The notes below the pieces were generated by a model. The model had not been told where the DNA came from. It made no database searches and worked only from the letters and a program-made list of their open reading frames with translations. Both the position numbers and the translations under genes were made by a program. Shown here in pieces: positions 748-19,400 of a stretch of 22,017 nucleotides of DNA (within the stretch, counting starts at the first letter, position 1; every line of letters starts with the position of its first letter). Origin of the DNA: an uncultured virus (IMG/VR IMGVR_UViG_3300042367_000583) (taxonomy: Duplodnaviria > Heunggongvirae > Uroviricota > Caudoviricetes). The stretch spans positions 62,001-84,017 of IMG/VR virus record IMGVR_UViG_3300042367_000583. The stretch is one strand, 5' to 3'.

Positions 748-1167
748 TTAAGGCATTTTTAGGTCTTCATAGCGTTTTCCCCATTCGTTAACAAGAATCG
801 TAATTTCTGGAAGATTAATCGCTTTACCTTTAATCCATATATACGGATTATTTGATTCTGATAAACTTGTTAATGTTTCAAATAGCAAGTTTGTAGATTT
901 CAATTCTACAAATGTTAAATTAATCTTGATTACTTTTTTAGTTTTGCCAGAATCGCAAGTAATCTCAAAATCTGCCTTTAATTGCTGTACTTGATTAATG
1001 CCTACACTAAAAACTAGGTTAGCTACCAATCCATGCAAGCAAATATTTTCGACTTGCCCTGTACTTAAAACTTTCCATTGGTTTTTGCTGCTTTCAACTA
1101 AGATTTCTTGTATTTGCTGGGAAGTCAGTTCATCCCACCAATCACGACTTAAGAGATTCAGATTCAT
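748..1167 (-). CDS. Hypothetical protein
   Basis: 139-aa ORF with AGGAG RBS, co-oriented with neighbours. Confidence 0.75.
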   Translation of the reverse strand: MNLNLLSRDWWDELTSQQIQEILVESSKNQWKVLSTGQVENICLHGLVANLVFSVGINQVQQLKADFEITCDSGKTKKVIKINLTFVELKSTNLLFETLTSLSESNNPYIWIKGKAINLPEITILVNEWGKRYEDLKMP

Positions 1168-1246
1168 TTAATACTCCTTAATTCCCATTTTTAGATTTTT
1201 TAGCTTTTCAGGTCTTTATAGGTTGCTGATAACTGACAACTAACTA

Positions 1247-2047
1247 TTAAAAATCTTCACTGAGAAGTTCACCAGGATCAATATTTTCACTGCGAACTTC
1301 TATTACTGGCTTTAGCCTTGCGTCTATAGCTTTTTTTAGGAGGTCGGCTAATTCTTTTTCAGAGGTTGCTTGTTGGGCGACTTGTTCTGCTTCTGATTGA
1401 GGTAATCCTTGATTTACAGCCCAAATAATTCCAGCTTGTTTGCGCTCTTCTGATAGCGACGACTGTGGTTTGCTTGGCAAAGATACTTCCACATCTACTA
1501 CATTACCAGATTCGCCAATTTCAGCGCCTAGCTCGTCAGGATTATAAATAGGTGCGCCAAGTGCTAAGTCGGGGCAAAACTCACGGAACCCGTTAGAAAT
1601 CGCCCTTGCAAAAAGCATATTTTTGGGGTATTTTTTCCAGTTAGGATTCCCTGCGAGAAGTCCTGCTGCTTGGGCATCGTCTTTTGAAAAAGAACTAATC
1701 CCTAAAGATTCCCAGTTGTTTTGCCAAAGCTCAAAAAACTCTAATTCGCAGATTTCTGGCGTGTGTTTAATTTTTTTGTATCGGTATTTACCCGATCCTT
1801 TAATTAAAGCCGCCATTAAATTAGCACTTAATGCAGGTTTTCCTTGTATTAAATGAATACCAGTCATCGAAGCAAAGGCTGGAATACCTAACTCTTTTCC
1901 TGCTAAAACTTTGACAAAACATTTAGCAGCACTTTGTACATCCCCAAACATTCCTGATTTTGCCAAAATATCAGAAACTTTGTAAATATCATCGACTGTT
2001 TTAAGTTCCAGCGGGGAAGATTTGATATTGACAATTTCACTAGACAT
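1247..2047 (-). CDS. RecT-like phage single-strand annealing protein (probable start 2047, MSSEIV)
   Basis: Motifs AGKELGIP...IHLIQGKPALSA...W.KYPKNMLFARA...FCPDL...Y..DEL; acidic C-terminal tail; AGGA RBS before 2047. Confidence 0.7.
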   Translation of the reverse strand: MSSEIVNIKSSPLELKTVDDIYKVSDILAKSGMFGDVQSAAKCFVKVLAGKELGIPAFASMTGIHLIQGKPALSANLMAALIKGSGKYRYKKIKHTPEICELEFFELWQNNWESLGISSFSKDDAQAAGLLAGNPNWKKYPKNMLFARAISNGFREFCPDLALGAPIYNPDELGAEIGESGNVVDVEVSLPSKPQSSLSEERKQAGIIWAVNQGLPQSEAEQVAQQATSEKELADLLKKAIDARLKPVIEVRSENIDPGELLSEDF

Positions 2048-2143
2048 AATGTTTTTCCTAAAAATAGGTGTAAGGATCGCTGAATTTACAAAATGAAGAA
2101 AGCTCGGTAACAAGCATCTATCTTCTGAAACTCGATTAATACA

Positions 2144-2172
2144 ATCTTATAGTAAATTACTAGAATTGTCAA
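2144..2172 (-). promoter_or_regulatory. Sigma70-type promoter for recT-like operon
   Basis: TTGACA-N17-TAAGAT. Confidence 0.65.
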
Positions 2173-2241
2173 GCATTTTTAAAAAAAAACTTGCAAAAAA
2201 CTTACAAAAAGATAATAGTACAAAAGAACTAAGTTATTATC

Positions 2242-2502
2242 GTTAATAGATTGTAGATAAAGATATTAACAATGGAATCCTTGATATATATAGGTTTCAG
2301 ACTTTGTTAATACTGTTATCATTATCCCCCAATATTATTTTTTTTACACTCTTACTGCTGAGGCTGTTTTTCCCCTTTACCCTATTTTCTTTTTTCCTCT
2401 ATACAGTATTAACAGCATCAACAAAGTCTAGAACCTTTACAGGGTAACGGTTTCGATTGTTAATAACCCTATTAACAATCGAAATACAATCTAACTTCCC
2501 AC
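2242..2502. repeat. ~260-bp element, copy 1 (imperfect terminal inverted arms, MITE/origin-like)
   Basis: Colinear direct repeat of 12632-12892; left arm is an imperfect reverse complement of right arm. Confidence 0.85.
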
Positions 2503-2508
2503 CATTTC

Positions 2509-2700
2509 TTGCTAATATTAAAGGGCAATGCAGCGAATTTCAACGAGAGGAACGGAAACAAGCGTTTAGAAAAGCTGAACGCTTTGTTACAAATGCTAGT
2601 GAGCAAGGTGGTGTCACTCCAGAAACACAACCGCACTCATTTCAGCGCCCGTGTGGATACTGAAATTCGCAGTGGTCTTACCTTTATCCCTTTGCCTTAA
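2509..2700 (+). pseudogene. Possible 3' fragment of a captured gene
   Basis: Frame open back into the repeat junction, TTG start without RBS, ends 5 nt before the 2706 ATG. Confidence 0.35.
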
Positions 2701-2705
2701 ACAGA

Positions 2706-3332
2706 ATGACAACGATACTTAGAAGAGTACAACAATTTTTAGACTCTGGCGATAGTGATAACGCTAGAGAAGAAATTGATAGAGCTTTCGGCAATCTGAG
2801 AAGGGTGGATAGTCATGTTAGAGAGTTTGCCGCTCTGTTAGCACTGGGATCGATCGAAGCTTCAGAAATCGGATTAGGAGTATTGGGACGCAAGCTTCTA
2901 CAGAATGACAGCGAGATTAATAATGAGGTTATTTGGTTATTTATTGCGTCAATTTTATCTCGCGATAGTATTCCCTCTGATAGTCCATCTAGAATCAGCC
3001 TACTTGTTCTTACCGCTTCTGTCAATAGTTGGGAATTACCAATTTTTGCGCTTCTTACCCCTGCCCTCGACGCTTTTTTTAAAGTTAGTCTTGCGGACGG
3101 AACCCCTTTAATTGCCGAACAAACTCTCGATTTTTTGACCACTTGGGGAAGAATTTATGCTAAAGCACCTCATGTCAAAACGCAGCTTCAAGAACTTCAA
3201 TCTCTTAGTAATAATCTATTAGAGCAAGTAGATGACTCAGGGTTAAAAGCTGAATGGTCAGAGGGAATTAATATATTTTTTGAAGAAGCCAGCACAACCA
3301 AATATTCAGATAGTAATGTTTTTTCTCCATAA
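2706..3332 (+). CDS. Hypothetical alpha-helical protein, probably C-terminally truncated
   Basis: 208-aa ORF opposite to flanking genes; last codons and stop lie inside the repeat arm at ~3320. Confidence 0.65.
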   Translation: MTTILRRVQQFLDSGDSDNAREEIDRAFGNLRRVDSHVREFAALLALGSIEASEIGLGVLGRKLLQNDSEINNEVIWLFIASILSRDSIPSDSPSRISLLVLTASVNSWELPIFALLTPALDAFFKVSLADGTPLIAEQTLDFLTTWGRIYAKAPHVKTQLQELQSLSNNLLEQVDDSGLKAEWSEGINIFFEEASTTKYSDSNVFSP

Positions 3333-3417
3333 AGCATCAACGGTATCAACAAACCTTGAAACCTAGTCAAGGTAAAGGTTTCGATTGTAGATAAGGTTAT
3401 TAACAATCGAATTACAA
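3320..3417. repeat. Isolated right arm of the 260-bp element (copy 3)
   Basis: catcaacggtatcaacaaa...gaaacct...ggtttcgattgtagataaggttattaacaatcgaattacaa aligns with ~2390-2490 and ~12780-12880. Confidence 0.75.
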
Positions 3418-3466
3418 AAGAACAGAAGATATACTTAGCATATTTAAATTAAATACTGCTATCTGC

Positions 3467-5728
3467 TTAGACGATCGTTGCTAGTGATTCTTTAAAAGGC
3501 ACTGGATAGCTTGAATTTTGAAAAACCCGTACTGTGTAAGCCGATTGGATTGATCCCCAATCGGCTATCTGTTGCGATTCTGTGTAAACGACGCTTCGGG
3601 CTGACGATACTGACCATTCTCGTTTTACTGTGGACTCGTCGTAAATTCTGACTACATAGCTGTTCAATTCTCCTGCTGCGTAAGCAATATCGATATAGTC
3701 GATCCAACGACCATTTAACCGCGTCCGTCGATACCAAGTAATAATTAAATCGTTGTTATCTTTTTCCCCTCTTACAGCACAAGGGAAAGGCTTTAATCCT
3801 TCTAAAGTAATTGTGTGAGCAGTCTCGTCTTCTATATCAGTTTCAAGTAGTCCATTAGGGACTACTTTTAATAAATATTCTCGATTAATATCAGAAAGAT
3901 TTAAAGGGAGTCGAACTAAATAATTAGTTAGTAGCACAAATTTTTCCCCTATTATATGCTTAGAGATAGCTGGTTCAGTTCCTTTGACTCCACGAATTGT
4001 ATATGAAATATCAAAAATTAAAGGATTGCTAGACACAATAGCAGCATTTTTAAAAGCTATAATTTCTCCAGTAGAAAACCAACCTAATTGTTTGCCCGAT
4101 AGAAATGTTTCAAGAGTAACTGGCTCTAATTGCCCTGAATTCATACTTATTCGTATCCAATTTGAATCGTCAATAAAACTAGGAGAGGCGTTGTTAAAAT
4201 TTGGGGAAAAGCTCAATACAGTACCAGTTACGCTGTTGACAACATTGCCAACAGCAAAATCATAGCTTAATCCGTTGTCATCAGAATAAAATAATGCTCC
4301 TTTCCTAAAACTAGAGTTACCTTCAATTGCCACATAAATTCCTATGTCTGTATCTCGGCTATTAACTATTGGGACTTCAATAGGAATAGCGTTAGCGCGT
4401 CCGTAGGGACGAGGAGTGTTATTGTCTGGCGGAAATTCGTTATCTATAGGAATATCTGGTAAATATCCTACTCCTTGAAATCGAGTAGCTTCAATTTCAA
4501 TTAAATAATTTACGCCTCTTACTTTTTTGGTGATTTGCATCAATTCCTGATGATAATTGTTATTATCATTAGTAAAAATTACATCCCCAACTTTCAGATT
4601 TTCCCATGCTGGCAATAAAAGCATTTTTGAAAAAGTTTTTGATTGCGTTTTCCCTAAAAAAAGAATTTTTGAGGCAATATTCATGAAAAACATATCTATA
4701 TCTATTAGTTTAGTTTGAAAGCTAAGCTCGTTTGTGTGAGTATCTGATGGGTCTTTAGCTACTACGGTAATAGTTTCATAATTTTTTAAAACATTTAGCC
4801 CAGATACTGTAACGGCACTAGGAGTTTCTCTAAAATGAGTCAGTTTTTTTTCATTAAGGTCAATAGGATTTTCTCCAAATTTTTTAGACCCAAAAGAGCT
4901 TTTAGGGATAAAAATAGGATCAGATGATTGTTCTTGTCTTTTAAAAATGATTTTATCTTTTGGCTCCCTTGCTACAATAAAAAAAGCTCTCATAAGTTCT
5001 TCTAACTGATCAGCAAAAGATGTCCCATCAAACAATAAATCAAATCCTTGAATTCGGTAATCATTAGGAATGTCAGTCACATCAATTTGATCGTCTGTTC
5101 TACCAGCTAATTTACAAATAGTTTTCAAAATATCTTTTATTTTTGGATTGTCTCCACTTTCTCCAATCACCTCAACATCAATAGCAGGAAATCCAGTGCC
5201 GTCATAATTAGCAATCGGATAATTATTAAAAAGTAAAAAAGACATTCCAGTAAAAGCAGGTACTGGGTTGGATTCTTTCGATTGAATAACAGAAGATGGC
5301 GTAGTTTGATTGCCAGTATAAATAGTTGTATGTTCAATAAATTTTAGGCTTTTTTCGTCGTTAGTTTCAGAATTGTAAACAAGGATGCTGTTCATCCAAA
5401 CTCGCCTAACAGAGCCAATTTTTCTGGCAATTGGATAAGCGGCTGTCAGAAAATAAGTGTAAACTTCGGTAGTTTGCCCACCACCACCACCTTTTCCGCC
5501 TTGTCTTTCGGAAGTGACGACTTCCTTAAGAGGAAGCCCCCACATCATAGTTAGCCCTTCTTTTCTCACCTTCCCAAAAGGATAGGATAGGCTTTTGCCG
5601 TATTCAGCATCGGGAACACCAGTATCCTCAATTCTTCCTTTTTGTTGAACAGGAGGTTTAGGAGCAAATAGAGATAATAATAGGTTAGCTCCGACTCCTA
5701 TTGCTATGGGAATGAGAAAATTAGCCAC
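3467..5728 (-). CDS. Phage tail tip/host-specificity protein (gpJ / GTA megatron-like, Phage-tail_3)
   Basis: 753 aa; YG..L.Y.FG.VR, GGKGGGG, I..VRRVW.N, PAF.G, GEIIAF, RGVKGT, W.RRTR motifs. Confidence 0.85.
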   Translation of the reverse strand: MANFLIPIAIGVGANLLLSLFAPKPPVQQKGRIEDTGVPDAEYGKSLSYPFGKVRKEGLTMMWGLPLKEVVTSERQGGKGGGGGQTTEVYTYFLTAAYPIARKIGSVRRVWMNSILVYNSETNDEKSLKFIEHTTIYTGNQTTPSSVIQSKESNPVPAFTGMSFLLFNNYPIANYDGTGFPAIDVEVIGESGDNPKIKDILKTICKLAGRTDDQIDVTDIPNDYRIQGFDLLFDGTSFADQLEELMRAFFIVAREPKDKIIFKRQEQSSDPIFIPKSSFGSKKFGENPIDLNEKKLTHFRETPSAVTVSGLNVLKNYETITVVAKDPSDTHTNELSFQTKLIDIDMFFMNIASKILFLGKTQSKTFSKMLLLPAWENLKVGDVIFTNDNNNYHQELMQITKKVRGVNYLIEIEATRFQGVGYLPDIPIDNEFPPDNNTPRPYGRANAIPIEVPIVNSRDTDIGIYVAIEGNSSFRKGALFYSDDNGLSYDFAVGNVVNSVTGTVLSFSPNFNNASPSFIDDSNWIRISMNSGQLEPVTLETFLSGKQLGWFSTGEIIAFKNAAIVSSNPLIFDISYTIRGVKGTEPAISKHIIGEKFVLLTNYLVRLPLNLSDINREYLLKVVPNGLLETDIEDETAHTITLEGLKPFPCAVRGEKDNNDLIITWYRRTRLNGRWIDYIDIAYAAGELNSYVVRIYDESTVKREWSVSSARSVVYTESQQIADWGSIQSAYTVRVFQNSSYPVPFKESLATIV

Positions 5729-7057: not shown

Positions 7058-7372
7058 TTATTCTCTGTAAAAATTAAGATCACACCAAAAGGAATCTTTC
7101 CAAAAATTTATCAATTGTATATTTTTTTCAGCTATTAATTTTCGCCAAAGACGAAAATTCTCAAAAAAATTATACCATCCAAAAGGAACATCTTTTCTAA
7201 GGGTAGTCCAAATAATAGGTAAATAGCTGTTGATAGGTTTATAAAGTTTGTTACAAACATAAATATAAAAACCAAGAGACAAAGTGTAAAACAACCCTTT
7301 GGTGATTAACATAAATCCCCATACAGAAATTAAAAACAAATTCAAGATTAAGGCTATCGGTTTTATTTTCAT
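7058..7372 (-). CDS. Hypothetical membrane protein
   Basis: 104 aa, hydrophobic N-terminus, ATGA overlap with upstream gene. Confidence 0.65.
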   Translation of the reverse strand: MKIKPIALILNLFLISVWGFMLITKGLFYTLSLGFYIYVCNKLYKPINSYLPIIWTTLRKDVPFGWYNFFENFRLWRKLIAEKNIQLINFWKDSFWCDLNFYRE

Positions 7373-7563
7373 TTTTGACCTTTAATAGATTTTAAAGTTA
7401 TTACTATGCTAGTTACACAAAAAAGCCAAACATACCAAAATTTAAAAAGCAATTCTGTTTCTGTTAAATGTAAATGAATGAATCTAATACCGAAAATTAT
7501 ACAAGTATTAAAACTCATGACAGCAATCAAAAGGTAATAGTTTATTTGTTTAGTCTTTTTCAT
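7369..7563 (-). CDS. Small 2-TM membrane protein, paralog of 7582..7794
   Basis: 64 aa; YLL.AV...IR...L.LT..EL...FWY.WL shared. Confidence 0.7.
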   Translation of the reverse strand: MKKTKQINYYLLIAVMSFNTCIIFGIRFIHLHLTETELLFKFWYVWLFCVTSIVITLKSIKGQK

Positions 7564-8064: not shown

Positions 8065-8520
8065 TTATCTTAATATATCTAGCCCTCGATTTCTGATTTT
8101 TTGAGCAAGGTCTTTATTAAATACTTTTGATTTTTTAATCACAGTAATCTGATTGCTTGGCCAGTATTCTAGCAGAAAATCAACGAGTTCTATTGAAGTT
8201 GTGTGTATTCTAGCTTCTTTGCTACATCCTTTTAGTAATTGGTAAAAAAGAAATAGTCCACTAAGCAGGTCTTTTTCAATTACCCAAAATACTAATTTAA
8301 TTAATGTATTGCTAAGTCGCCAGTGTTTTAGAAGTTGGCATAGTTTTGTCTCTTCTAATTGCCAGTAACTGAAAAAATCCAAAACATTAGAGATTACTGG
8401 GTAGTCGCTTCTATTTACAAAGTCAGATACTAGAGCATCGATTGCTTCTAGAGATTGACACATCCCGATAGATGCAATCGATAATCCCTCTAATTTATAT
8501 CCTGAGATAATTTGTAGCAT
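8065..8520 (-). CDS. Hypothetical protein
   Basis: 151-aa ORF starting 20 nt past the array trailer. Confidence 0.65.
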   Translation of the reverse strand: MLQIISGYKLEGLSIASIGMCQSLEAIDALVSDFVNRSDYPVISNVLDFFSYWQLEETKLCQLLKHWRLSNTLIKLVFWVIEKDLLSGLFLFYQLLKGCSKEARIHTTSIELVDFLLEYWPSNQITVIKKSKVFNKDLAQKIRNRGLDILR

Positions 8521-8540
8521 GGTTTTGGAGTTTTGTTTTG

Positions 8541-9011
8541 TTTTCCTGCCTTAGTAAGGCTTAAGCTTAATTGCTTCGCCCACTGCTTAAATGCTTCCCA
8601 GTCGGTTTCATCGTTTCAATCCCTAATAAGGCTTAAGCTTAATTGTTTCATAAATGAGATTAGCAAGGAAAAATGGTGCTTAAGGTTTCAATCCTTAATA
8701 AGGCTTAAGCTTAATTGCTTCGATAACTAATGCCTATATCAAAGATGAAGATCAGCGTGTTTCAACCCCTAATAAAGCTTAAGGTTAATTGCTTCAAGAT
8801 CAGAAAACCCCTCACAGTTATCAGTACGCGTTTCAATCCCTAATAAGGCTTAAGGTTAATTGCTTCGATTTCGATAAAGAATCAGCGCAGGAGGAATTAC
8901 TTGTTTCAATCCCTAATAAGGCTTAAGGTTAATTGCTTCAATTTGGATCGCTGTACCCAAAAATCGAATTCGAAGTTTCAATCCCTAATAAGGCTTAAGG
9001 TTAATTGCTTC
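8541..9011 (-). CRISPR. CRISPR array: 7 repeats of 37 nt, 6 spacers of 34-37 nt
   Basis: Consensus (minus) GAAGCAATTAACCTTAAGCCTTATTAGGGATTGAAAC; repeats start at 8541 (degenerate), 8613, 8685, 8759, 8830, 8903, 8975; mutations accumulate toward the 8541 trailer. Confidence 0.98.
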
Positions 9012-9280
9012 CCATCTTCCTTTAGCCCTTGATGTAAAAGGGTTTCGGGTAAGGATTGCGCCCCATTCGCTAAAATTTAGTTTTCAAGGTTCTGCTTGGT
9101 TCAAAAAATCAGGCTAGTAAATCCCAGATCGTAAGCTGGTCGGGGTTTCTGGGGATTGCGCCCCGTGATTTTTTGGAACTTCGCTTAGATGCCTTATTAG
9201 GTAAGGCTTTCGGGTTATTTATGCCGTGGCTATCCTCGCACGGCTGAGGTGGGGCGGAAGAAAAAATAAGGGATTGCGAG
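9012..9280 (-). promoter_or_regulatory. CRISPR leader, overlapping the last ~57 codons of the Cas gene
   Basis: GGATTGCGCCCC at 9053 and 9153 (100 bp apart), GGATTGCG at 9271; repeated CCCGAAA-[C/G]CCTT-N7-AAGG motifs (minus); CTCGCA/TGCGAG inverted pair at 9235/9275. Confidence 0.6.
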
Positions 9281-10992
9281 TCATTCTCGGACTGAGTGAG
9301 GGTGCGATTCCCTTCCTGCTTCATCTGCTTACTAATCGAGTGTTCGGCATTCTCTATCGGCGCGTCCCCAATAGACTCTTGATTTGCATCAAGATCAGGC
9401 GTGAATTCCCTCGCTAAACCGAGGTATTTTCCAATCATAGAGACAGGAAACTTGATTAAAGAGGCGATCGCTCTTAAAAACTCATCTCGTAAGCCACGAA
9501 TCAGAATATTTGCGGCGGCATTCTGATCGGCGTGAGCTTCGTAACCACAGCTAACACATTTAAACTTCGATTGACTAACGCGGTTAGCTTTATCAATATT
9601 ACCACAATTGAAGCAAGTTTGTGAAGTATGTTTAGGATTAACTCGGATCACTTTTCTGCCACGTTCGTTAGCTTTATTTTCAATAAATGTGCGAAGTTGT
9701 CCAATAGCATTATCAAGTAATGCCTTATTTAATCCAGACTTTCTTTTTTTGCCATTTTGTTTATAACCATCGCCGTCTTCTCTTTCTTTAGGTTTTGCGG
9801 CGGCTGTCATGTTTTTTAGTTTTAAATCTTCTAAAATAACTGATTGATATTCGCTAGTTATTTTATGGGCTAATTGAGCATTTCTCCCTTTTCGCTGACG
9901 AGCAATTTTCTCGTGAACACGAGCGAGTTTAGCGTAGGTTTTACGCTGATTATTAGAGTTATCTTTTTGTCTAGAAGCTTGACGCTGTAATCGGTTAAGT
10001 CGCTTTTTCTGAATTTTTGCGTAGCGTTTAGCTTCCGATTGTCTCCCTAAGTCATCGGTAAATATTGCCACAGCACCCATATCTAAACCAACACATTTAT
10101 CGGATTCTTTATAGATCGTGTCGTCAGTTTCGATGGTTAGCTGTAAGTAATATCCCGTCGCTTTACGAGTAATTTTAGCCATTCGGGGAGCTTTCCCTTG
10201 CAATCGATCAATCCCCCGTACTTTTAGTAATCCTATCTTTGAGGAAACGATAACTCCATTAGATTCAATCTTTATAGTTTCAGGTTGACCGTTAACAAGA
10301 GTCTCTACCTTATCCCGTCTTCCTTTAAACTTAGGAATCCCACGGATACCTTTTTTAGCGGCATCATAAGCAGGTTTAATCACACTTCTAAAAAAGCCTT
10401 TTTTAAACTCTGTTTCAATTTCACCGATAAATTTTGCTGTATCTCCTCGAAAGTAAAAAGCAAGTTTCTCCCTGTTGAGATAATTAACAGCATCCTCGCC
10501 AATATTTTCGGCATTCATGAAACGACGGATAGGAATAGCATCTAAGGGAGTATATTCTTTTCCGTTGCTTGTCTTTTTAAAATAGGCGATTTTACAGCAA
10601 GGATTGCTGATTAAAAGTTCTTTCTCTTTATCTTTAAGGGTTTTAAACTCTTTTTCGTCGTAATCCCCAGAATAACTTAACTTCCATATTTCAGGGCTAA
10701 ACTCATCGAATTTATGTTTTTTGCGATAATATCTTTGTGTTGACTCCTCTTTGAGTGCGATTGAAAGATTCCATAGCAACTTACACGCCGCTAAAGAACG
10801 ATCAATCTCTGTGATTTGTTCTTTAGTAGGATGTATCTTAAATTCCAAGACTTCCATAGGAGATTTTTCTTCTTTTTTCTTAGGAGTCTTTTTGACAATA
10901 CTAAACCTTAGATGATTATCTTTAGAACTAGGTGTTTCTTGAATTTGGTACTCATCTACTTTAAGTTTGACTTTACTTTTTTTGGCTTTCAT
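9109..10992 (-). CDS. TnpB-derived type V effector (C2c8 / V-U2-like) RNA-guided nuclease
   Basis: IS605-OrfB HTH (FKIHPTKEQ...CKLLWN), RuvC-I VGLDMG, RuvC-II ILEDL, Zn ribbon CFNC/CVSC, RuvC-III ADQNAAANI; 627 aa; abuts the array; no tnpA. Confidence 0.85.
   Translation of the reverse strand: MKAKKSKVKLKVDEYQIQETPSSKDNHLRFSIVKKTPKKKEEKSPMEVLEFKIHPTKEQITEIDRSLAACKLLWNLSIALKEESTQRYYRKKHKFDEFSPEIWKLSYSGDYDEKEFKTLKDKEKELLISNPCCKIAYFKKTSNGKEYTPLDAIPIRRFMNAENIGEDAVNYLNREKLAFYFRGDTAKFIGEIETEFKKGFFRSVIKPAYDAAKKGIRGIPKFKGRRDKVETLVNGQPETIKIESNGVIVSSKIGLLKVRGIDRLQGKAPRMAKITRKATGYYLQLTIETDDTIYKESDKCVGLDMGAVAIFTDDLGRQSEAKRYAKIQKKRLNRLQRQASRQKDNSNNQRKTYAKLARVHEKIARQRKGRNAQLAHKITSEYQSVILEDLKLKNMTAAAKPKEREDGDGYKQNGKKRKSGLNKALLDNAIGQLRTFIENKANERGRKVIRVNPKHTSQTCFNCGNIDKANRVSQSKFKCVSCGYEAHADQNAAANILIRGLRDEFLRAIASLIKFPVSMIGKYLGLAREFTPDLDANQESIGDAPIENAEHSISKQMKQEGNRTLTQSENDSQSLIFSSAPPQPCEDSHGINNPKALPNKASKRSSKKSRGAIPRNPDQLTIWDLLA
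9260..9430 (-). ncRNA. Candidate omegaRNA-derived tracrRNA scaffold inside the Cas gene 3' end
   Basis: IS605-like motifs TACCTCGG..GGGAATTCACGCCTG (9426-9396) and GATGAAGCAGGAA (9325-9313), then anti-repeat-like CAATCCCTTAT followed by a T-run. Confidence 0.4.
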
Positions 10993-11019
10993 GGATCGAC
11001 CTTCCTTTATTCTTATCTA

Positions 11020-11049
11020 AATCTACCATAAGCTTTATAGAAATGTCAA
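11020..11049 (-). promoter_or_regulatory. Promoter of the Cas gene
   Basis: TTGACA-N18-TAGATT with TG extension; near-copy at 11472-11501. Confidence 0.65.
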
Positions 11050-11058
11050 GTAAGAAGT

Positions 11059-11427
11059 CTAAAGATTTTTTGGGATACCAGTTCCCACATCAGAACCTAT
11101 AGCCCAACCCTTATAAAAGTTAAAGGCGGTAGTATCAATATAGAGGGGAAAACCTAAAGCTTCCCAGCAGTATAATAGTCTTAGTACATCAACAGTCTGA
11201 ACCGTATAATTTGATCCTGATTCAGTGATGATAAATTTTTCAAAAATCTCTGGGGCAACTAGAACAGAACAATAGTTAGTGTCGTTAAATTTACCAGACT
11301 TTTTGGCTAATTCAGAAGTAATTGCGATCAAAATCTCTTTTGTAAGTAATCTTTCTTGCAATATATTGCAACTATCTAAGTTAGTCCAAGCGGTAAATTT
11401 AACATAATTAGATCGGGAATTAAACAT
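11059..11427 (-). CDS. Hypothetical protein
   Basis: 122-aa ORF between the two promoter copies. Confidence 0.7.
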   Translation of the reverse strand: MFNSRSNYVKFTAWTNLDSCNILQERLLTKEILIAITSELAKKSGKFNDTNYCSVLVAPEIFEKFIITESGSNYTVQTVDVLRLLYCWEALGFPLYIDTTAFNFYKGWAIGSDVGTGIPKNL

Positions 11428-13035: not shown

Positions 13036-13470
13036 CTATGATTTTACCACTCCCGAAACAGGTACTCGATAAACCAGTACAGGCGGGTATTCATGAATAT
13101 AGGTCTTAATCACGCCATTTATTGAGTCAGCATGAATATACTCCCCATCTCCTAAATAGATGCCTACATGACCATTTATACCTGATTTACGGAAGACTAA
13201 AATATCTCCTTTATCTGGACTACCTTCTACTCTTGTCAAGATACCCTCAATAAATCTCACTAAGAAATTGTTCCGGGGAATCCGTTCGTAGTTTTCAATG
13301 ATGAAATCGTAAGGTAAAAACCCGACTTTAATCCCCACGCCAGCAATAAATCCTACACAATCGGTTCCAATCCCTTTAAGCGATTGTCCATGAAACCAAG
13401 GAGTACCGAGCCATTCAAGAGCTTCAGCAACGATTTGATTATCCAAAGAATCGTTTTTTAGTTCGTTCAT
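13036..13470 (-). CDS. NlpC/P60 tail-associated peptidase (gpK-like)
   Basis: WLGTPW.H.....G.GTDCVGF, GDILVF, GHVGIY.G.GEYIHA. Confidence 0.92.
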   Translation of the reverse strand: MNELKNDSLDNQIVAEALEWLGTPWFHGQSLKGIGTDCVGFIAGVGIKVGFLPYDFIIENYERIPRNNFLVRFIEGILTRVEGSPDKGDILVFRKSGINGHVGIYLGDGEYIHADSINGVIKTYIHEYPPVLVYRVPVSGVVKS

Positions 13471-16400
13471 TTTGTGTATTTTCCCGTTCTTTCAATTGAT
13501 TTAAACTATACCCCATGTCATTCCGTGATTCTACAGTCACGTTATTGGTGTTATTAATTACCAAAGACTGATTAGAGCTATTAGTATTTGAAGTTGTGGA
13601 GTAATTAGGTTTACCCCCGACAAATCCCCCATTAGCATAGTTCTTAATAGGAGCATTATTTCTGTACTCTAGATATGCTTCTGTTTCTTTAGGGGTAAGA
13701 ACCAATTCGCCTTCATTAGCTACGATCAAGCGAGGTTTTCGGCCTCCCGACATTGCTCGTTCACGCTGAAAAGCTGAAATGATATTTTTCTCTATCGGAG
13801 CATTGGCATCTCCAACTTTCCCGCCATCACTAAATAAGCTGAATCCTGTACCTAGAGAAAAGGCAGAAGCCGGAGCAGAAGCAAAGCTAGAGGCTCCTAT
13901 ACTACCAAGTGACCCAATCGAACCAAGTCCGCCTAGTCCCCCACTAAAAATCCCTGTTATTCCACTAAGTAGCCCGTTAAATAAGCCACCGCCGCCACCG
14001 CCACCAAAAATAGAAGAAAAGATGTTACCTACTGGTTTGAAGATACTGTTTAGAGCATTAGTGAAAAAGTTGCCTACTGGCCCGATGATTGCATTAAATA
14101 CTGACTCAAATGCCTGAGTTATTGGTTTAGTAAAACCATCGATAGCAGAAGTTAAAGCATCGATAGCAGGCTTAGTAATACCCTCGACAAATTTTGTCAT
14201 GATATTTAATCCAAGACTACTAAAAGCCGATCCTATTCCTTTTCCTTCTCTAATGTCAGAGAAAAAGCTTTCAGCTGCGCCACGATTCGGAGAGGCATCT
14301 AATGCTACTCGCTCTAATCTTAATTCTGCAAGTTTTTCCCATTCCGAGCGGATATTAGCCACATATTCAGCGTATTGTGGTAAGTCTTTGTAAGGTTCTA
14401 AATAATCCTCTAATTCCTCTTTTTCTTTTTGTAGGCTAATACGTTCGGCAAGGATAGCAGAATCATCAAATAAAGTCGGTCGAGACTGAAATTCTAGTTG
14501 CGTTCTTTGGATAGTTAAATCATTTAACCGATCACGGATACTCCTGACTGTATCTCTGGTTTTTCTAAATGATGCTTCTAAGGTAGCTACTCCCTGATTT
14601 TTGCCTAATTGTTCAATCGCTTGATCAAGAATTGCTACCTGTTCTTTAGCTAATTCAGCGTTTTTAGCTAAAACCTCGATACTATCTGTTATCTCTTTGA
14701 CAAATTCAGGGGGAAGAGCTATACCTTTTTCTTGAAATTCTCCTAAGATTTCTTTTATTGCGTCGCTGTATTTTTGTTGAGCGTCAGCATTTAAAAGTAA
14801 AGTCCGTCGCTGGTCTTCTAGTGATTCAATCTGAGAGCGATATTGTCGAGAGACTTCCGTGGCACTCTTGTTAATTTCTTCTTGTACTGTCAGATACCCT
14901 TTAGAGTTGATGGTCAAATCAGCGACATTTTCGGAAGCATCTCTTAAAGTACGTTCTAATGCACGGGCATCTTCCTCTTGCTGCCGTCTAAATTTTATTG
15001 ATCTGTCAAGAGCATTGTTTAGATTTTGTTGCTCTTCTAGCCGTCTTGAAAACTCCTCAGCGTTTTGGTTGGCTGTTTCAGCGTTGCGAATTTGATCAGC
15101 CGCTGCGCCAAGATTACCCGTAGGAAGATTGGGAACGGGAGGCAAATCAGGACCCTGGAAGTTAATCGGATTGTCTTTAAGAACCGGTGGTAAATCGGCA
15201 TCCCAGAAATTATCTTGATTTTGATTAGGTAGAGTCGGTAATTGGGCTATAGGTGGAGGACTACTAAATTCTGGACCGCCTTTTCCTTCTTTTGTTTCTT
15301 CTTTTGTTAAAACACGGGCAGGAGAAGGGTTAGAGGTGGAGTCTTTAATGGATTGGCTAATTGCATTAGTAGCATTAGTTATTATTTTTCGATTATTTAG
15401 TTGATTGCCGTTAATATTTGCATAAGCAGTTACAATATATTCTTTCCCATTAATGTTTACCAGTCCAACGTTACCAATAACTTTAGAGTTATTTCCAATT
15501 TTTCCGCCGATTTCATTATTATACTTAAAATTTCTTGTTTGTCTCAGAGATTGTTCAGCTAATTGACTTGCAGGATTTTGATTTTTAATTAAAGACTGCA
15601 TAGCTAACGTTACGTCTTGTGCTGTTGAAATGTTTGGAGTTCCACTGCCTGGTATATTTAAATACCTAGAAATAGTAGTGTTTTTATAACCTTCTTTTCT
15701 GGCTAATTCTGTAGCTTTGGTTAGCCCACCTAGCCGATCAATTAAAACATTAGTTGCCGTATTATCTGACTTTTCTAGCATTAGCTGTACTAGCTGTTCA
15801 ACTGTTTTAACTTGATTGGCTTTTAATTGTCCGTGTGGATCAACCAAAGGCAATTTTATGGCGATAGCGTCTTTTAAGGAAAGTTTTCCGCTTGTTATTT
15901 CTTTGGCAATCAAATCAGCAATAATAACTTTAATTGTACTAGCTGGTGACGCTGGGGGTGTTTGAGCGTTTTTAGAATATACAGTTTTTCCGCCAACTTC
16001 TTGAACTAAAACAGATTGAATATTTTTTGGTAATCTGTTGGTGATTTGTTGCTGAACTGATGGAGAAGGGTTAGGGGTGGAAGTTGATGGAGTGGGTAAA
16101 CCGCCTTGATTTCTTCTGATTTGTCGAATACGGTTTGATGCTCCGCTGTTAGCAGGATTGCCGTCATATCGCAGTGCGTCCAATTCGGATTGAGTACGGG
16201 GAGCATTGAGTTGATATTTTCGTAAAAACTGCTCGTAAACCTTTAACAGGTCTTCCATCCGCTTCATGCCTTGCCCGGGGTAATTAGCCCCTGGAAAAGA
16301 TGCCCATTCTTTGCGGGTTGCGTTAATTACCCCACGAATATCTCCTTTAAAAAGCTCGTCTAATCCACCTCTAAATAAAATACGGCTTAATGCGACTAAA

Positions 16401-19400
16401 TCTTGAGAGGCAGGAGAAAAATCTTTTAATCCTAATTTCGCTTTTTCTTCATCCCATGTAAAATCCATAATCTGGTATCTTCCAGATGCCGATGAAGTGG
16501 TCGATCCAAACGGGATTCTTTGTCGTGGATGGTCTGCAAAAGAACTAAATTGTCCATGTCCAAAAAGAGTGTTATATCCCTTATTTGGCATATTGAAAGT
16601 ACCTTCTGCGTAAGCAATAATATCAAGAAAGGCTTTGACGCGAGGATTGTTTAAATGCTGAGATAATTCTTGACCGCGTGGTGTTAACCCCTTGGGAATT
16701 GAAGACGACTGCGGCGGCGGTAAAAACCCTCCCCCATTCCACACAGGAGCAGGGGTGAAATTACTAGGTGCTGGTAGTATCAAACCTTCCTTAGCTTTTC
16801 TAATTGCCTCAGCAGTTTCCTCTATACTTTTTACTAAGTCTTCTCCAGAAGTCTTGATATTTGGGGGAATAGCTATTAACTCAGAATTGATTAATTTAAT
16901 CGGTTCTGGAAGTGTATTAAGATTTGTGACAATATCCTTGATTGATTGGGGAATAAAGCCTAATTCTTTATTGGTTTGTCGGATTAAATCAGCTAGAGTA
17001 CGATTGAGGTCTTCCTGAGTCCGTTTAATATCCTCAATCGTTCTTAGTCTATTTCTTTCAGCGTCTTGCTGTTGCTCTTGTAGATTACGGATATTTCTTA
17101 GGGTAGAGATATAGGAAGTTTCTATCTCCTCGGTTCGGGATTGGAAGGTGCGTCCGCGACTGGCAAGGTCAGCTTGGCCCTGTACAAATTCTAGGAAAAT
17201 GTCCCCTAGTTCTTTACCAGCGTCGCTTGTACCGGGTATTAATAAACGGTTTTTAACTTGCTGTACCCTGATTCTATCAGTCGTATCCAGTAACTGATTT
17301 TGGGCATTTAAGAGGTTCTTATCGAGTTCCCTGACTAAATCAATGTAACTTTCAGATAGGGAACGATTTTCTCTAAAAGCTGACAGTTGAGCATCTTCAA
17401 TCTGTCTTCTATAATCTTCAATCTGACGATTAAAGTCGATTATCTGACGGTCAAGGTTGCGGTAATAGTCTTGTATTTGTTCTTGCTGATCTCTTAAAGA
17501 TAGTTCGGTTTCAGCTATTTGCTGTGTGATATTTGCAATAGCTGTTTTTACTGCTAAAGGATCATCTACGTTTAATACTAATTTTTCTTGCTCTAAGGCT
17601 AATTGATTATAAAGAGCCGCTAAGTTTATCTTGGTTTGTTCCAGTCCGTAGCTAATATTTTGACTGGAGGAGGTTTTATTAGCTAGATTAGTGAGTTGTT
17701 CTGCTTTAACAATTTCTCCACTAGCTTGTTTTTCTTGTATTTGTCTTTTCTTTCTTTCGACAATAATCTCTCGACTAATTTGCTGAATTTCTCTCTCAGC
17801 GTTTAAAATATCTCGTCGAGCGGTTGCGTATTCTTTAGCCTGATTTAAAATATTTCTTAAAGCGGCGTTATCTTTTAGGTCAGATTCGTACTGATCCATT
17901 ATTTGCTGAATAGCATCAGGAGAGAGTAAATTTTCAGCAATTGCTTCACCAAAGCTCGCTACATTTAGCTGTTTTAAGTCTTCTTTAAAGTAAGTGCTTA
18001 AAACTTTATTGGCAGATTTAGATAGCCTTTCGTTTAAAGTATTAGAGATAGAGTTAGCTGAATTTTCTAAAGTGGCGATACGCTCTTTAGCAGTCTGTAA
18101 GCTTTCTTCTTGAACTTTAACATTAAACTGAAATTCATTAATTTTCCCTGATGCAAATTGTTGATTTAATCCAATTGAACGACTTAAACTATTTCCTTCA
18201 TTGGCAAAATTAGCATTAGCTCTTGTTCTTATAGCAAGATCAAAGGCAACTTGTAATTTTCTATATTCTTTTTCTTGGTCTTTCAAGACTTGTAGATAAT
18301 CTTGTTCCGCTTTTTTTAAGTAACCAATTATAGTCACGAGGTCTTTTTTACGTTGTATGTAAGCAATGTCAGTTATATCTCTATTCTTAAAGCTTTGCTC
18401 TAACGATGCTAACGCTATCTCATATTGCTGAAGGTCGGCAGTAATTCTTGACCCAACGGGACCTAACTGTTTATTAATTAGCTCCTGTTCTCGCTTCATT
18501 AAATTCTGCTCTTGCTGGTTAAATTCAGATACAGATCGGTCGTTTCCTTCTGTGCTTGCAATTGTTCTTTCTGCTCTAACTAAAGCTAAATTATTTCTGA
18601 TTTCTTGTAATTCAGATGAAAATTGTTTGCTACCTGAAAAATTAGATAAAGTGTCTTGATATTCTTTGAGATTTCCGACTCCAGTAGCCAGAGATTTATC
18701 AATGTTTTCTAGTCCTTGTCGTAATTCTAATAGTGACATAAGCCATTTAGAATTATAAACAAGCCCTAGTGTTAGAACATTAAAAAACTTTTCTCCTCCA
18801 GACAATTCCATATCAGGCAAAAAGCTTGTTAAGCCTTTGCGATTACTGTTATCGGTTTTGTTTTGCCAAACATCAAGAGCTTTTTTAGACTCTTCTAGGG
18901 TTCTTACAGCTTGTTTTAGTTCTTCGCTACCAGCATTTAATGCGTTATAAACAAATTGAATACCAGTTATCACCGCAGTAGGGATAGCCAATGCTTTAAT
19001 TAATCCTATTCCTGCTAAAGTAGCAAGGTTTATAGATACTTTTAATTTACCCATGGCTGTAGCTGTAGATAGAGATGCTACTCCGGCAACTTGTAAGGAT
19101 GCACTCATAGCAGCGCTGGCAACGGCTCCTAACCGACCCGCTGCCGCAAATTGCATGACTGATTTTCCTAAGAATCCCATGACTGACAGTAACCCTGCGG
19201 CTCCCACTGATGCCACAGTCCCTAGATTGTCATTCAAGGTACTCAAGACGGCATTTAATGCCTGTAAAGCAGGGTAAGCGGCTACTCCAATTTTTTCCCC
19301 TAACTGCATTTGAAGCTGTTCGGTATTGTTCTGGAATCGAGAGATTTCCGATTGTAAAGTTTCGGTAGAAAGAGAAAGACCTCCGGCACTCATCCGTTTA

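What the first reader, a model, noticed from the sequence alone, without database searches (positions are those of the whole stretch)
9260..9430. omegaRNA-to-tracrRNA intermediate hidden in the Cas coding sequence
Seen: after RuvC-III the ~125-aa tail looks disordered, but its DNA contains TACCTCGG...GGGAATTCACGCCTG and GATGAAGCAGGAA, which resemble motifs of the IS605 omegaRNA that overlaps tnpB 3' ends. Where a transposon right end would be expected, the minus strand reads CAATCCCTTAT (10/11 complementary to repeat ATTAGGGATTG) then a T-run. Inference: the ancestral scaffold was kept and now pairs with crRNA, a snapshot of the TnpB-to-Cas12 transition.
Basis: partly seen in the sequence, partly recalled or inferred. 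Interest (0 to 1): 0.8.

Follow-up and report, generated by a model that had tools for sequence, protein, structure and literature searches.

The report
Guide-RNA scaffold inside nuclease gene
The last part of a cyanophage's small CRISPR nuclease gene also encodes a folded helper RNA that pairs with its CRISPR repeats, a layout inherited from transposon TnpB and already known for Cas12n, shown here for the untested type V-U2.

Summary
The quoted strings, the 10/11 anti-repeat and the T-run lie at 9426-9261 on the minus strand, inside the predicted-disordered tail (aa 513-627) of a 627-aa type V-U2 (C2c8) effector on an 84-kb phage record.

Taken alone the 10/11 match is near chance. Comparison with relatives carries the case. 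A covariance model built without the window's clade finds 9426-9267 as the best hit in the window. Its helices are 96-97% paired, and 20 of 24 pairs carry compensatory changes. The two quoted strings are the strands of one conserved helix (CCUG/CAGG). The terminal CAAUCCC covaries with each locus's own repeat.

The same RNA lies in non-coding DNA after a tail-less effector (L024). It is a separate divergent gene in four loci, and a weaker version sits in a TnpB gene's 3' end. Contigs from four metatranscriptomes pile up on 8975-9433.

The reading as an omegaRNA-derived tracrRNA inside the ORF is therefore supported, though not shown at the bench. The layout is already published for Cas12n and TnpB, and this scan noted it earlier in other V-U2 cyanophage loci. 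It is a new member of a known kind. The T-run is probably not a terminator.

The parts
9109..10992 (-). Type V-U2 (C2c8) effector ORF, 627 aa. The folded core ends near aa 512 and aa 513-627 are predicted disordered.
   Evidence: ORF; NF038192, 465.7 bits against a cut-off of 350, E 2e-139; PDB Cas12f/TnpB/Cas12n matches end near aa 510; D304, E388, D489 invariant; pLDDT below 50 for 513-627.
9262..9426 (-). Scaffold RNA (tracrRNA/omegaRNA-like) encoded in codons 523-577 of the tail
   Evidence: Model R1, built without this clade, hits 9426-9295 (25.7 bits, E 1.7e-5, filters off) and 9426-9267 (29.8 bits, E 2.4e-5). It is the best hit in the window.
9409..9424 (-). Helix H1 (CCUCG / CGAGG, loop GUUUAG), preceded by UA and followed by GGAA
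   Evidence: The 29-nt motif occurs in 38 loci. Two double compensatory changes occur in the window clade: UA/CG to CG/UA, changing the protein L to P and RE to GK. A3 helix 1 is 98.8% paired.
9396..9399 (-). 5' strand (CCUG) of the helix that closes the H2 arm.
   Evidence: Pairs with CAGG at 9315-9318. A3 columns 28-32/60-64 are 97.5% paired, and pair 32-60 reads GC 11, UG 3, CG 1, UA 1. The helix is also in the MFE fold.
9353..9394 (-). Clade-specific enlarged H2 arm: hairpin H2a (9394-9388/9383-9377, GCAA loop) and hairpin H2b (9375-9368/9360-9353)
   Evidence: H2a is 98.8% paired and H2b 100%. Pair 61-73 reads CG 7, UG 4, UA 1. Other lineages carry one variable hairpin at this position (helix 2).
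9313..9325 (-). Conserved motif GAUGAAGCAGGAA. Its CAGG (9318-9315) is the 3' strand of the closing helix.
   Evidence: (GAAsCAGGAA is invariant or nearly so in A3). It is present in non-coding DNA in L024.
9298..9312 (-). Helix H3 (GGG / CCC or UCC register, 9-nt loop)
   Evidence: helix 5: 100% paired with GC/GU alternation. The homologous H3 in A3 has all 4 pairs with double changes.
9279..9293 (-). Helix H4 (AGUC / GACU, loop CGAGAAU)
   Evidence: pair 140-150 reads UA 8, CG 3, UG 1. This compensatory change alters the protein (S to P, D to G). The homologous H4 in A3 is 100% paired with 6 of 7 pairs doubly changed.
9270..9276 (-). Anti-repeat CAAUCCC, complementary to GGGAUUG of the repeat
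   Evidence: R1 aligns it to the conserved CAAYCNC element. Pairing with each locus's own repeat gives 92 of 98 positions in 14 lineages, against a permuted mean of 82.6, with 0 of 20000 permutations as high.
9261..9266 (-). U-run after the anti-repeat; probably not a terminator
   Evidence: It is conserved only in this clade and in L024/L025. No terminator-like site was found on the minus strand. RNA contigs bridge it (X1 8984-9360, X7 8982-9363, X6 9129-9332).
9121..9138 (-). Codons for the C-terminal peptide QLTIWD (QLxLW/F motif)
   Evidence: The motif is conserved in distant homologues with synonymous codon variation. The resemblance to the beta-clamp-binding motif is recalled, not tested.
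8541..9011 (-). CRISPR array: 7 repeats of 37 nt (the last degenerate) and 6 spacers, on the same strand as the gene
   Evidence: Weak Rfam CRISPR-DR5 resemblance on the minus strand.

Best explanation
Window 9426-9262 (minus strand) is read in two ways. As codons 523-577 it belongs to a disordered C-terminal tail of a phage-borne type V-U2 (C2c8) nuclease. As RNA it is the roughly 165-nt guide-RNA scaffold of that nuclease.

The scaffold runs H1, then a CCUG/CAGG helix closing a variable arm (here H2a and H2b), then the GAAGCAGGAA motif, H3, H4, and a terminal anti-repeat CAAUCCC. The anti-repeat pairs with GGGAUUG near the 3' end of each CRISPR repeat, so the scaffold acts as a tracrRNA for the array 8541-9011.

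It descends from the TnpB omegaRNA, which likewise overlaps the 3' end of its nuclease gene. In omegaRNA the partner strand of the terminal helix and the guide follow in cis. Here they are supplied by repeat-spacer units.

Shown: the conserved structure, its strand, its covariation with the repeat, and its presence in RNA libraries. Inferred: binding by the effector, processing from the mRNA or a long leader transcript, the exact RNA ends, and the requirement for cleavage.
For: 1. Identity. NF038192 (C2c8) scores 465.7 bits. The RuvC residues D304/E388/D489 are invariant. The array is adjacent on the same strand.

2. Structure in relatives. On 16 sequences from other lineages (A3), 97.4% of 347 cells pair, against 70.9% in shuffles and 38-47% when partners are slid. 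20 of 24 pairs change on both sides, and 0 of 500 shuffles reach this. With the extra helix, 22 of 29 pairs change on both sides.

3. Independence. R1 was built without the window clade, yet its top hit in 22 kb on both strands is 9426-9295 (25.7 bits, E 1.7e-5; the next hit scores 12.2 bits).

4. Wider search. R1 gives 41 hits in 98 sources (373 kb). The fitted alignment A5 is 96.6% paired against 62.2% shuffled.

5. Window clade. Among 12 distinct sequences, 359 of 360 cells pair. Double compensatory changes occur in H1 (two), H2b and H4, and they change amino acids.

6. Strand. G-U pairs are frequent (for example pair 5-16 is GU in 10 of 16). They would be C-A on the other strand.

7. Not tied to coding. 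The scaffold lies 27 nt after the stop of a 482-aa effector in L024 (56.5 bits). It lies upstream and divergent in L041, L043, L044 and L047. In L047 the anti-repeat matches the repeat 10 of 10.

8. No room elsewhere. In 10 loci the ORF stops inside repeat 1.

9. Anti-repeat covariation. 92 of 98 positions pair, and 0 of 20000 permutations are as high.

10. TnpB link. An 18.9-bit collinear hit lies in the last 135 nt of a 432-aa TnpB ORF (NF040570, 2e-70).

11. Substitutions in the tail are nearly independent of codon position, unlike in the core.

12. RNA. In 4 of 4 metatranscriptomes from 4 studies, contig depth is far higher over 8975-9433 than over the gene body. X2 gives 926-4598 against 12-46, and X7 gives 20-243 against 0-3. 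X7 contigs run into sequencing adapter at 9423 and 9433.
Against: No raw reads were available. Contigs give no strand, no true ends and only a rough level, and the runs were chosen because they hold this stretch.

R1 scores the window only 25.7-29.8 bits, because the H2 arm is enlarged and H3 is 3 bp.

Thermodynamic folding gives no support on its own. The z-score is -0.13. Only 19 of 31 comparative pairs appear in the MFE fold. Co-folding with a repeat does not recover the anti-repeat duplex.

The anti-repeat is only 7-8 nt and lies 258 nt from repeat 1. Two further CGCAAUCC copies (9163-9150 and 9065-9048, D3) could be the working ones.

No sigma-70-like promoter lies just upstream of 9426.

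The link to TnpB omegaRNA rests on weak hits (E 0.18-0.75 genome-wide).

The tail is also under some peptide-level selection (QLxLW), so part of its conservation is protein-driven.
Confidence: 0.75

Rival explanations
1. The scaffold works mainly in cis, like an omegaRNA with a long leader. One transcript starts near 9430 and runs through the tail and the 97-nt spacer into the array. Only the first repeat-spacer unit, or the unprocessed precursor, uses the scaffold, and no discrete trans-acting tracrRNA exists.
For: RNA contigs run continuously from about 9360 to repeat 1 (X1 8984-9360, X7 8982-9363). No terminator was found on the minus strand. In 10 related loci the ORF and scaffold run straight into repeat 1. 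In the TnpB relative the partner strand follows in cis.
Against: The arrays hold 6 or more spacers with conserved repeats, which need a scaffold in trans. In four loci the scaffold is a separate divergent gene. Depth is 4-12 times higher over 9310-9400 than over 9037-9309 in X2 and X7, which suggests a shorter stable species (subject to the tool's caveats on contig depth).
Confidence: 0.15
2. The conserved RNA is a regulatory or stability element of the mRNA 3' end or the CRISPR leader, not a guide scaffold bound by the effector. The working tracrRNA, if any, lies elsewhere, for example at the CGCAAUCC copies 9163-9150 or 9065-9048.
For: Two extra anti-repeat-like copies lie closer to the array (D3). 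The intergenic 100 nt is as conserved as the tail. The cyanophage CL131 paper reported no tracrRNA near its V-U2 locus (PMC6293099, passages read).
Against: The element keeps the order H1, closing helix, H3, H4, anti-repeat even when moved to a separate gene next to the effector. Its last 7 nt track the repeat of each locus. A weak but collinear match (18.9 bits) to the scaffold model lies in a TnpB gene's 3' end, where omegaRNAs are known to lie. The extra copies are clade-specific.
Confidence: 0.06
3. Protein only. The tail is a disordered linker with short peptide motifs, and the apparent RNA structure is a by-product of codon conservation.
For: The tail motifs Y..L.G(K/E)(V/F)TP, KQMKQE and QLxLW are conserved in homologues of 30-45% identity. 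QLxLW shows synonymous variation. The frame through the scaffold stays open, with TAC in frame, in all but one (L071) of the in-ORF loci that could score.
Against: Paired changes alter residues non-conservatively (L to P, RE to GK, S to P, D to G) while keeping base pairs. The same sequence and structure occur in non-coding DNA and on a separate gene. G-U patterns and slid-partner controls both point to RNA pairing.
Confidence: 0.03

Closest known systems
Cas12n (type V-N, formerly V-U4/C2c9) with its tracrRNA overlapping the ORF 3' end
   Same: A miniature TnpB-like effector has a disordered C-terminal tail whose coding DNA holds the tracrRNA, on the same strand as the array. Sources: PMC12216341 (introduction passage read) and bioRxiv 10.64898/2026.03.27.714800 (section 6 read). 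The solved chain that PMC12216341 identifies as RdCas12n, 9j09, matches residues 320-500 at 1.3e-22.
   Different: It is a different protein family. Here NF038192 (C2c8) passes its cut-off, and no c2c9 model appears among the 7 NCBIfam hits. In the cyanobacterial and cyanophage loci fetched here, the scaffold position varies within the one family: inside the ORF, downstream of it, or upstream and divergent. Whether the RNAs are homologous was not tested, because no Cas12n tracrRNA sequence was available to me.
TnpB omegaRNA (reRNA) of IS200/IS605 elements
   Same: The scaffold overlaps the 3' end of the nuclease ORF on the sense strand. A cyanobacterial TnpB (L134, 432 aa) carries a collinear, weaker match to the same model in its last 135 nt.
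   Different: In TnpB the partner strand and the guide follow in cis at the transposon right end. Here the guides come from a 6-spacer CRISPR array 258 nt downstream, and no TnpA or IS ends were seen in the window. Rfam 15 gave no match in this interval to any of its families.
TranC systems (TnpB-to-Cas12 intermediates formed by splitting of the right-end RNA)
   Same: The concept is the same: a transposon RNA split into a tracrRNA-like part and a crRNA part. I know it only through its description in bioRxiv 10.64898/2026.03.27.714800 (passages read).
   Different: I could not read the original TranC paper, so I cannot say whether its clades include C2c8/V-U2. That preprint states that its TranC clades have no unstructured tail holding the tracrRNA.
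Type V-U2 locus of cyanophage vB_AphaS-CL131
   Same: It is a phage-borne C2c8-type effector next to a small array, with no other cas genes (PMC6293099, passages read).
   Different: That paper reported no tracrRNA and left the array direction open. Here a tracrRNA candidate and its strand are proposed.

Membership tests
Type V-U2 (C2c8) CRISPR effector | Protein matches the curated C2c8 model above its cut-off | tested here: met
   NF038192 scores 465.7 bits against a cut-off of 350, E 2e-139, over residues 48-470.
Type V-U2 (C2c8) CRISPR effector | RuvC-like nuclease core with catalytic D/E/D and a zinc-ribbon (TNB) insert | tested here: met
   Pfam OrfB_IS605 and Cas12f1-like_TNB match. D304, E388, D489 and the CxxC pairs are invariant in 20 homologues.
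Type V-U2 (C2c8) CRISPR effector | Adjacent CRISPR array, no adaptation genes | tested here: met
   Seven repeats lie at 8541-9011, 97 nt after the stop. Pfam and NCBIfam found no cas1/cas2 among the neighbouring ORFs.
tracrRNA | Anti-repeat complementary to the CRISPR repeat | tested here: met
   CAAUCCC(U) pairs with (A)GGGAUUG. Across 14 lineages 92 of 98 positions pair with the locus's own repeat, and 0 of 20000 permutations are as high.
tracrRNA | Expressed as a discrete small RNA | tested here: inconclusive
   RNA-library contigs from 4 studies concentrate on 8975-9433, with adapter-bounded ends at 9423 and 9433 in X7. Contigs give no strand or true ends.
tracrRNA | Bound by the effector and needed for crRNA-guided cleavage | not testable with these tools
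   This needs RIP-seq and cleavage assays.
TnpB omegaRNA / reRNA | Overlaps the 3' end of the nuclease ORF on the sense strand | tested here: met
   The scaffold 9426-9262 lies inside ORF 9109-10992. The strand is fixed by G-U pairs.
TnpB omegaRNA / reRNA | Scaffold continuous with a single guide at the transposon right end, within an IS element | tested here: not met
   The guides lie in a multi-spacer array, and no TnpA or IS ends were found among the window ORFs.
TnpB omegaRNA / reRNA | Structural homology to a TnpB-associated RNA | tested here: inconclusive
   R1 gives 18.9 bits (E 6.6e-4 in 15 kb; 0.18 genome-wide) in the last 135 nt of a TnpB ORF, with the same order of elements.
Cas12n (type V-N) | Membership of the Cas12n/C2c9 protein family | tested here: not met
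   The best curated family is C2c8. Chain 9j09 (RdCas12n per PMC12216341) aligns only over residues 320-500.
Rfam families | Match to any curated RNA family in 9260-9430 | tested here: not met
   Only two tRNAs reach gathering threshold. At E up to 10 over 8950-9600 there are only weak CRISPR-DR hits on the repeat and two matches that I take for chance (GHRLOS and PK-BYV, both on the + strand and far below gathering score).

The most novel reading that the evidence does not exclude
The C2c8/V-U2 family preserves, within one family, every stage by which a transposon guide RNA became a CRISPR tracrRNA. These are: omegaRNA in a TnpB gene's 3' end; the scaffold inside the effector ORF with the ORF ending in repeat 1; the scaffold inside the ORF but separated from the array (this window); the scaffold non-coding downstream; and the scaffold as its own divergent gene. 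In the phage-borne branch the same DNA additionally encodes a disordered tether ending in a QLxLW sliding-clamp-binding peptide, so a phage nuclease would be delivered to host or rival-phage replication forks. The system is used in phage-against-phage conflict, since one spacer here matches a rival phage's second V-U2 gene.
Probability: 0.25. Interest if true: 0.75.

Novelty: new member of a known kind. Interest (0 to 1): 0.55.

Why it matters
I found no functional study of type V-U2 in the library searched. The one phage locus described there was reported to lack a tracrRNA. A concrete scaffold with strand, helices and anti-repeat gives a testable single-guide design for a family of 480-630-aa nucleases.

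The family also offers a natural series for studying how an RNA that overlaps its nuclease gene became an independent tracrRNA gene. It is a clear case of one stretch of DNA under both RNA-structure and peptide constraints.

The general principle is already known from TnpB and Cas12n, so the gain is extension and resolution rather than a new mechanism.

Tried and rejected
**No support or no result**
- The single-sequence fold of 9450-9255 is no more stable than shuffles (z -0.13).
- Co-folding the scaffold with repeat and spacer did not recover the anti-repeat duplex. In that script I set the CCUG/CAGG helix one base off; this was corrected, where the comparative structure scores -30.5 kcal/mol against an MFE of -43.0.
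- Rfam gave no family match in the tail, at gathering threshold or at E up to 10.
- The promoter and terminator scan found no sigma-70-like promoter just upstream of 9426 and no minus-strand terminator.

**Candidates set aside**
- The perfect 11-nt complement at 9201-9191 was rejected as the main anti-repeat. It carries a mismatch in most close relatives and forms a local hairpin with 9212-9207.
- The hairpin GCCGUG/CACGGC (9244-9223) has an uncompensated G to A change in 4 relatives and was not included.
- First assumption, Cas12k/CAST: dropped.

**Tool calls that failed**
- The genome search for relatives of a virus record, and with a locus as centre: errors. I then went through the genome handles of related loci.
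- The search for related loci with the 15-sequence alignment A1: no conserved stretch. A 6-sequence alignment worked.
The clamp-binding idea therefore remains untested.

**Other**
- R1 did not reach E 0.01 on L025, although an H1-like motif and an anti-repeat are visible by eye.
- Parts of the gene without RNA contig cover in X1, X6 and X7 are not evidence of absence.
Full report
**What is there.**
The window is the last 22 kb of an 84,017-base virus record. Pfam hits on neighbouring ORFs fit a phage: Rha regulator, NlpC/P60 peptidase and a tail-associated domain, plus two tRNAs.

ORF 9109-10992 (minus strand, 627 aa) is a type V-U2 effector. The curated C2c8 model NF038192 scores 465.7 bits against a cut-off of 350. 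Pfam finds the OrfB_IS605 and Cas12f1-like TNB domains. Solved Cas12f, TnpB and Cas12n chains align only up to about residue 510 (28 distinct chains matched).

Ninety-seven bases after the stop, on the same strand, lies an array of seven 37-nt repeats at 8541-9011. My first guess from the repeat ending (Cas12k/CAST) was wrong and was dropped.

**Checking the observation.**
CAATCCCTTAT (9276-9266) is 10/11 complementary to the repeat and is followed by six T. AlphaFold2 with a 20-sequence alignment gives pLDDT below 50 for all of residues 513-627, so the tail is predicted disordered.

Taken alone, however, the signals are weak:
- The 11-mer with up to one mismatch occurs three times outside the array, against 0.53 expected.
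- The interval folds no better than shuffled sequence (z -0.13).
- No Rfam family matches it.

**The tail is translated, yet it does not evolve like ordinary coding sequence.**
Homologues of 30-45% identity keep tail motifs: Y..L.G(K/E)(V/F)TP, KQMKQE, a basic patch and a C-terminal QLxLW(D/G). The last motif shows synonymous codon variation, so the peptide itself is under selection.

In 18 distinct close relatives, the core of the gene varies mostly at third codon positions. The tail varies about equally at all three positions, and about as much as the intergenic spacer.

**A conserved RNA.**
Other C2c8 loci were fetched from cyanobacterial genomes. Matches were found in 10 of 401, 21 of 351 and 3 of 25 genomes searched. 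A further 79 loci came from metagenomes.

In L024 the effector stops nine residues after RuvC-III.

A 29-nt motif, TACC-NNN-loop-NNN-GGGAA-NNNA-NGCC, occurs in 38 loci. Its three middle stem pairs are fully compensated.

An alignment of 16 sequences from lineages other than the window's (A3) supports four hairpins. 97.4% of 347 cells pair, against 70.9% after shuffling and 38-47% when partners are slid. 20 of 24 pairs change on both sides, and 0 of 500 shuffles reach this.

A fifth helix joins GCCUG to CAGG. Its variable pair reads GC 11, UG 3, CG 1, UA 1. Frequent G-U pairs fix the strand as that of the gene.

**The window belongs to this RNA family.**
Model R1 was built from A3, without the window's clade. 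It finds 9426-9295 as the top hit in the window on either strand (25.7 bits, E 1.7e-5, next hit 12.2 bits; filters off). With default filters it finds 9426-9267 (29.8 bits). The score is modest because this clade has an enlarged variable arm (two hairpins, 9394-9353) and a 3-bp H3.

Within the clade (12 distinct sequences, A4), 359 of 360 cells pair. Four pairs show double changes. In H1, UA/CG becomes CG/UA while the protein changes L to P and RE to GK. In H4, UA becomes CG, with a UG intermediate, while the protein changes S to P and D to G. This structure was derived from the window sequence, so the percentage paired is biased upward. The compensatory changes are not.

**It is an anti-repeat-bearing scaffold.**
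R1 found 41 matches in 98 sources (373 kb). The fitted alignment is 96.6% paired against 62.2% shuffled. Its last element, CAAYCNC, follows each locus's own repeat:

| Locus | Anti-repeat | Repeat segment |
|---|---|---|
| window | CAAUCCC | GGGAUUG |
| L024 | CAGUCCC | GGGACUG |
| L059 | CAACCUC | GAGGUUG |
| L047 | CAACCCCUAC | GUAGGGGUUG |
| L044 | CAAUUCAACA | UGUUGAGUUG |

Over 14 lineages, 92 of 98 positions pair, against a permuted mean of 82.6 (sd 1.66), and 0 of 20000 permutations reach this. In 10 loci the ORF ends inside repeat 1, leaving no intergenic room for a tracrRNA.

**Position varies within the family.**
- The scaffold lies in the ORF tail in the window clade and many other loci. 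TAC is in frame in all but one (L071) of the 21 in-ORF loci that could score; the L053 group is placed in its ORF tail.
- It lies 27 nt after the stop in L024.
- It lies upstream of the effector, on the divergent strand, in L041, L043, L044 and L047.

**Link to TnpB.**
In five whole cyanobacterial genomes, R1 has no hit better than E 0.1 outside the C2c8 locus (in G230 nothing reaches that level), plus weak hits of about 18 bits. One of these (L134, 1501-1623) lies in the last 135 nt of a 432-aa TnpB ORF (NF040570, 2e-70). It shows the same order of elements and a cis partner for the anti-repeat-like segment just downstream. This supports omegaRNA ancestry, but only weakly.

**RNA evidence.**
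Four metatranscriptome runs from four studies hold parts of the stretch. When their contigs are laid on 8400-11100, summed contig depth is far higher over 8975-9433 than over the gene body:

| Run | Depth over 8975-9433 | Depth over gene body |
|---|---|---|
| X2 | 926-4598 | 12-46 |
| X7 | 20-243 | 0-3 |
| X6 | 2-9.5 | 0 |
| X1 | 16-33 | 0-10 |

X7 contigs run into sequencing adapter at 9423 and 9433, next to the start of H1. Contigs bridge the T-run. Contigs show no strand or true ends, depth is per contig, and the runs were selected for this stretch. This is a hint, not proof. It does argue against the T-run acting as a terminator.

**What is known.**
[quoted passage not shown] The same preprint describes TranC intermediates that arose by splitting of the right-end RNA (passages read).

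For V-U2, full-text searches for 'c2c8' (47 papers, 20 listed, none of them on CRISPR function) and for 'V-U2' with 'Cas12' (18 papers, 15 listed) found no functional study. The cyanophage CL131 paper reported no tracrRNA (PMC6293099, passages read). PMC10691335 (passages read) notes only that omegaRNAs can overlap the TnpB CDS. I could not read the original Cas12n and TranC papers or any supplements.

Earlier notes of this scan describe the same arrangement in other V-U2 cyanophage loci. I reached the reading before seeing them.

**Verdict.**
The feature is real and the reading is supported. It is a new member of a known kind.

Noticed in passing
window 9121-9138 (minus strand); the same motif in L014, L040, L042, L045, L054, L055, L061, L066, L071, L121: The tail ends in QLTIWD. 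The consensus across lineages is QLxL(W/F), with synonymous codon variation. From memory this resembles the bacterial beta-sliding-clamp-binding motif QL[SD]LF. It is absent from the L053-type branch, whose tails end in a basic patch plus ..ENDSS. The complex prediction with a Microcystis DnaN could not be run.
   Followed up: partly
window 8867-8902 (spacer) against L014/L015 7375-7410: One spacer matches, at 35 of 36 bases, the tail and scaffold region of a second C2c8-like gene in two related phage contigs. This suggests phage-against-phage targeting of a rival's V-U2 system. The flank on the protospacer side reads TTGTC.
   Followed up: partly
L014/L015 5872-7581 and downstream: Related phage contigs carry a second C2c8-like gene (570 aa, C-terminus YTQLTLWETG). 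It has its own scaffold (R1 33 bits at 7339-7432) and a second array with a different repeat (..TAGATTGCAAG). The window has no counterpart.
   Followed up: partly
L136 401-437 (Microcystis phage MaMV-CH01; the same in MaMV-DL01, DL02 and DH01): A solitary 37-nt copy of the V-U2-type repeat (35 of 37 identical to the window's repeat variant) sits in a 63-nt gap between two hypothetical genes of Fukuivirus Microcystis phages, in crRNA sense, with no array. It could be a decoy repeat (RNA anti-CRISPR); this idea is recalled from the literature, not tested.
   Followed up: partly
window 9150-9163 and 9048-9065 (minus strand): Two further copies of CGCAAUCC, spaced about 100 nt apart, lie downstream of the scaffold. 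The first forms GGGG-CGCAAU-CCCC. Their role is unexplained (spare anti-repeats or sequestering hairpins).
   Followed up: no
L002, L050 (and probably L004) downstream of repeat 1: After a window-like first repeat, the repeated 18-mer found 14-15 times is different (..TTCCAATTAATCTTAAAC). The array next to the effector in these contigs may therefore be of another repeat type, or a second array may abut it.
   Followed up: no
L003, inserted after the position aligned to window 9205: A 9-nt insertion, GGATTGAAA, which looks like the 3' end of the repeat, sits in the loop of the hairpin GCCUUA/UAAGGC in one Microcystis MAG.
   Followed up: no
L054, L055, L057, L059, L066, L071, L074, L075, L078, L121: The effector ORF reads into the first CRISPR repeat and stops there, so the last residues (..AETG..ETDLV) are encoded by repeat 1.
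   Followed up: partly
window 13439-21907 (minus strand): A 2,822-aa ORF whose C-terminal 1000 aa, the only part scanned, carry a beta-lactamase/peptidase S11-like domain (Pfam Beta-lactamase2, 1e-25). It lies next to an NlpC/P60 gene and is presumably a giant phage structural or lytic protein.
   Followed up: no
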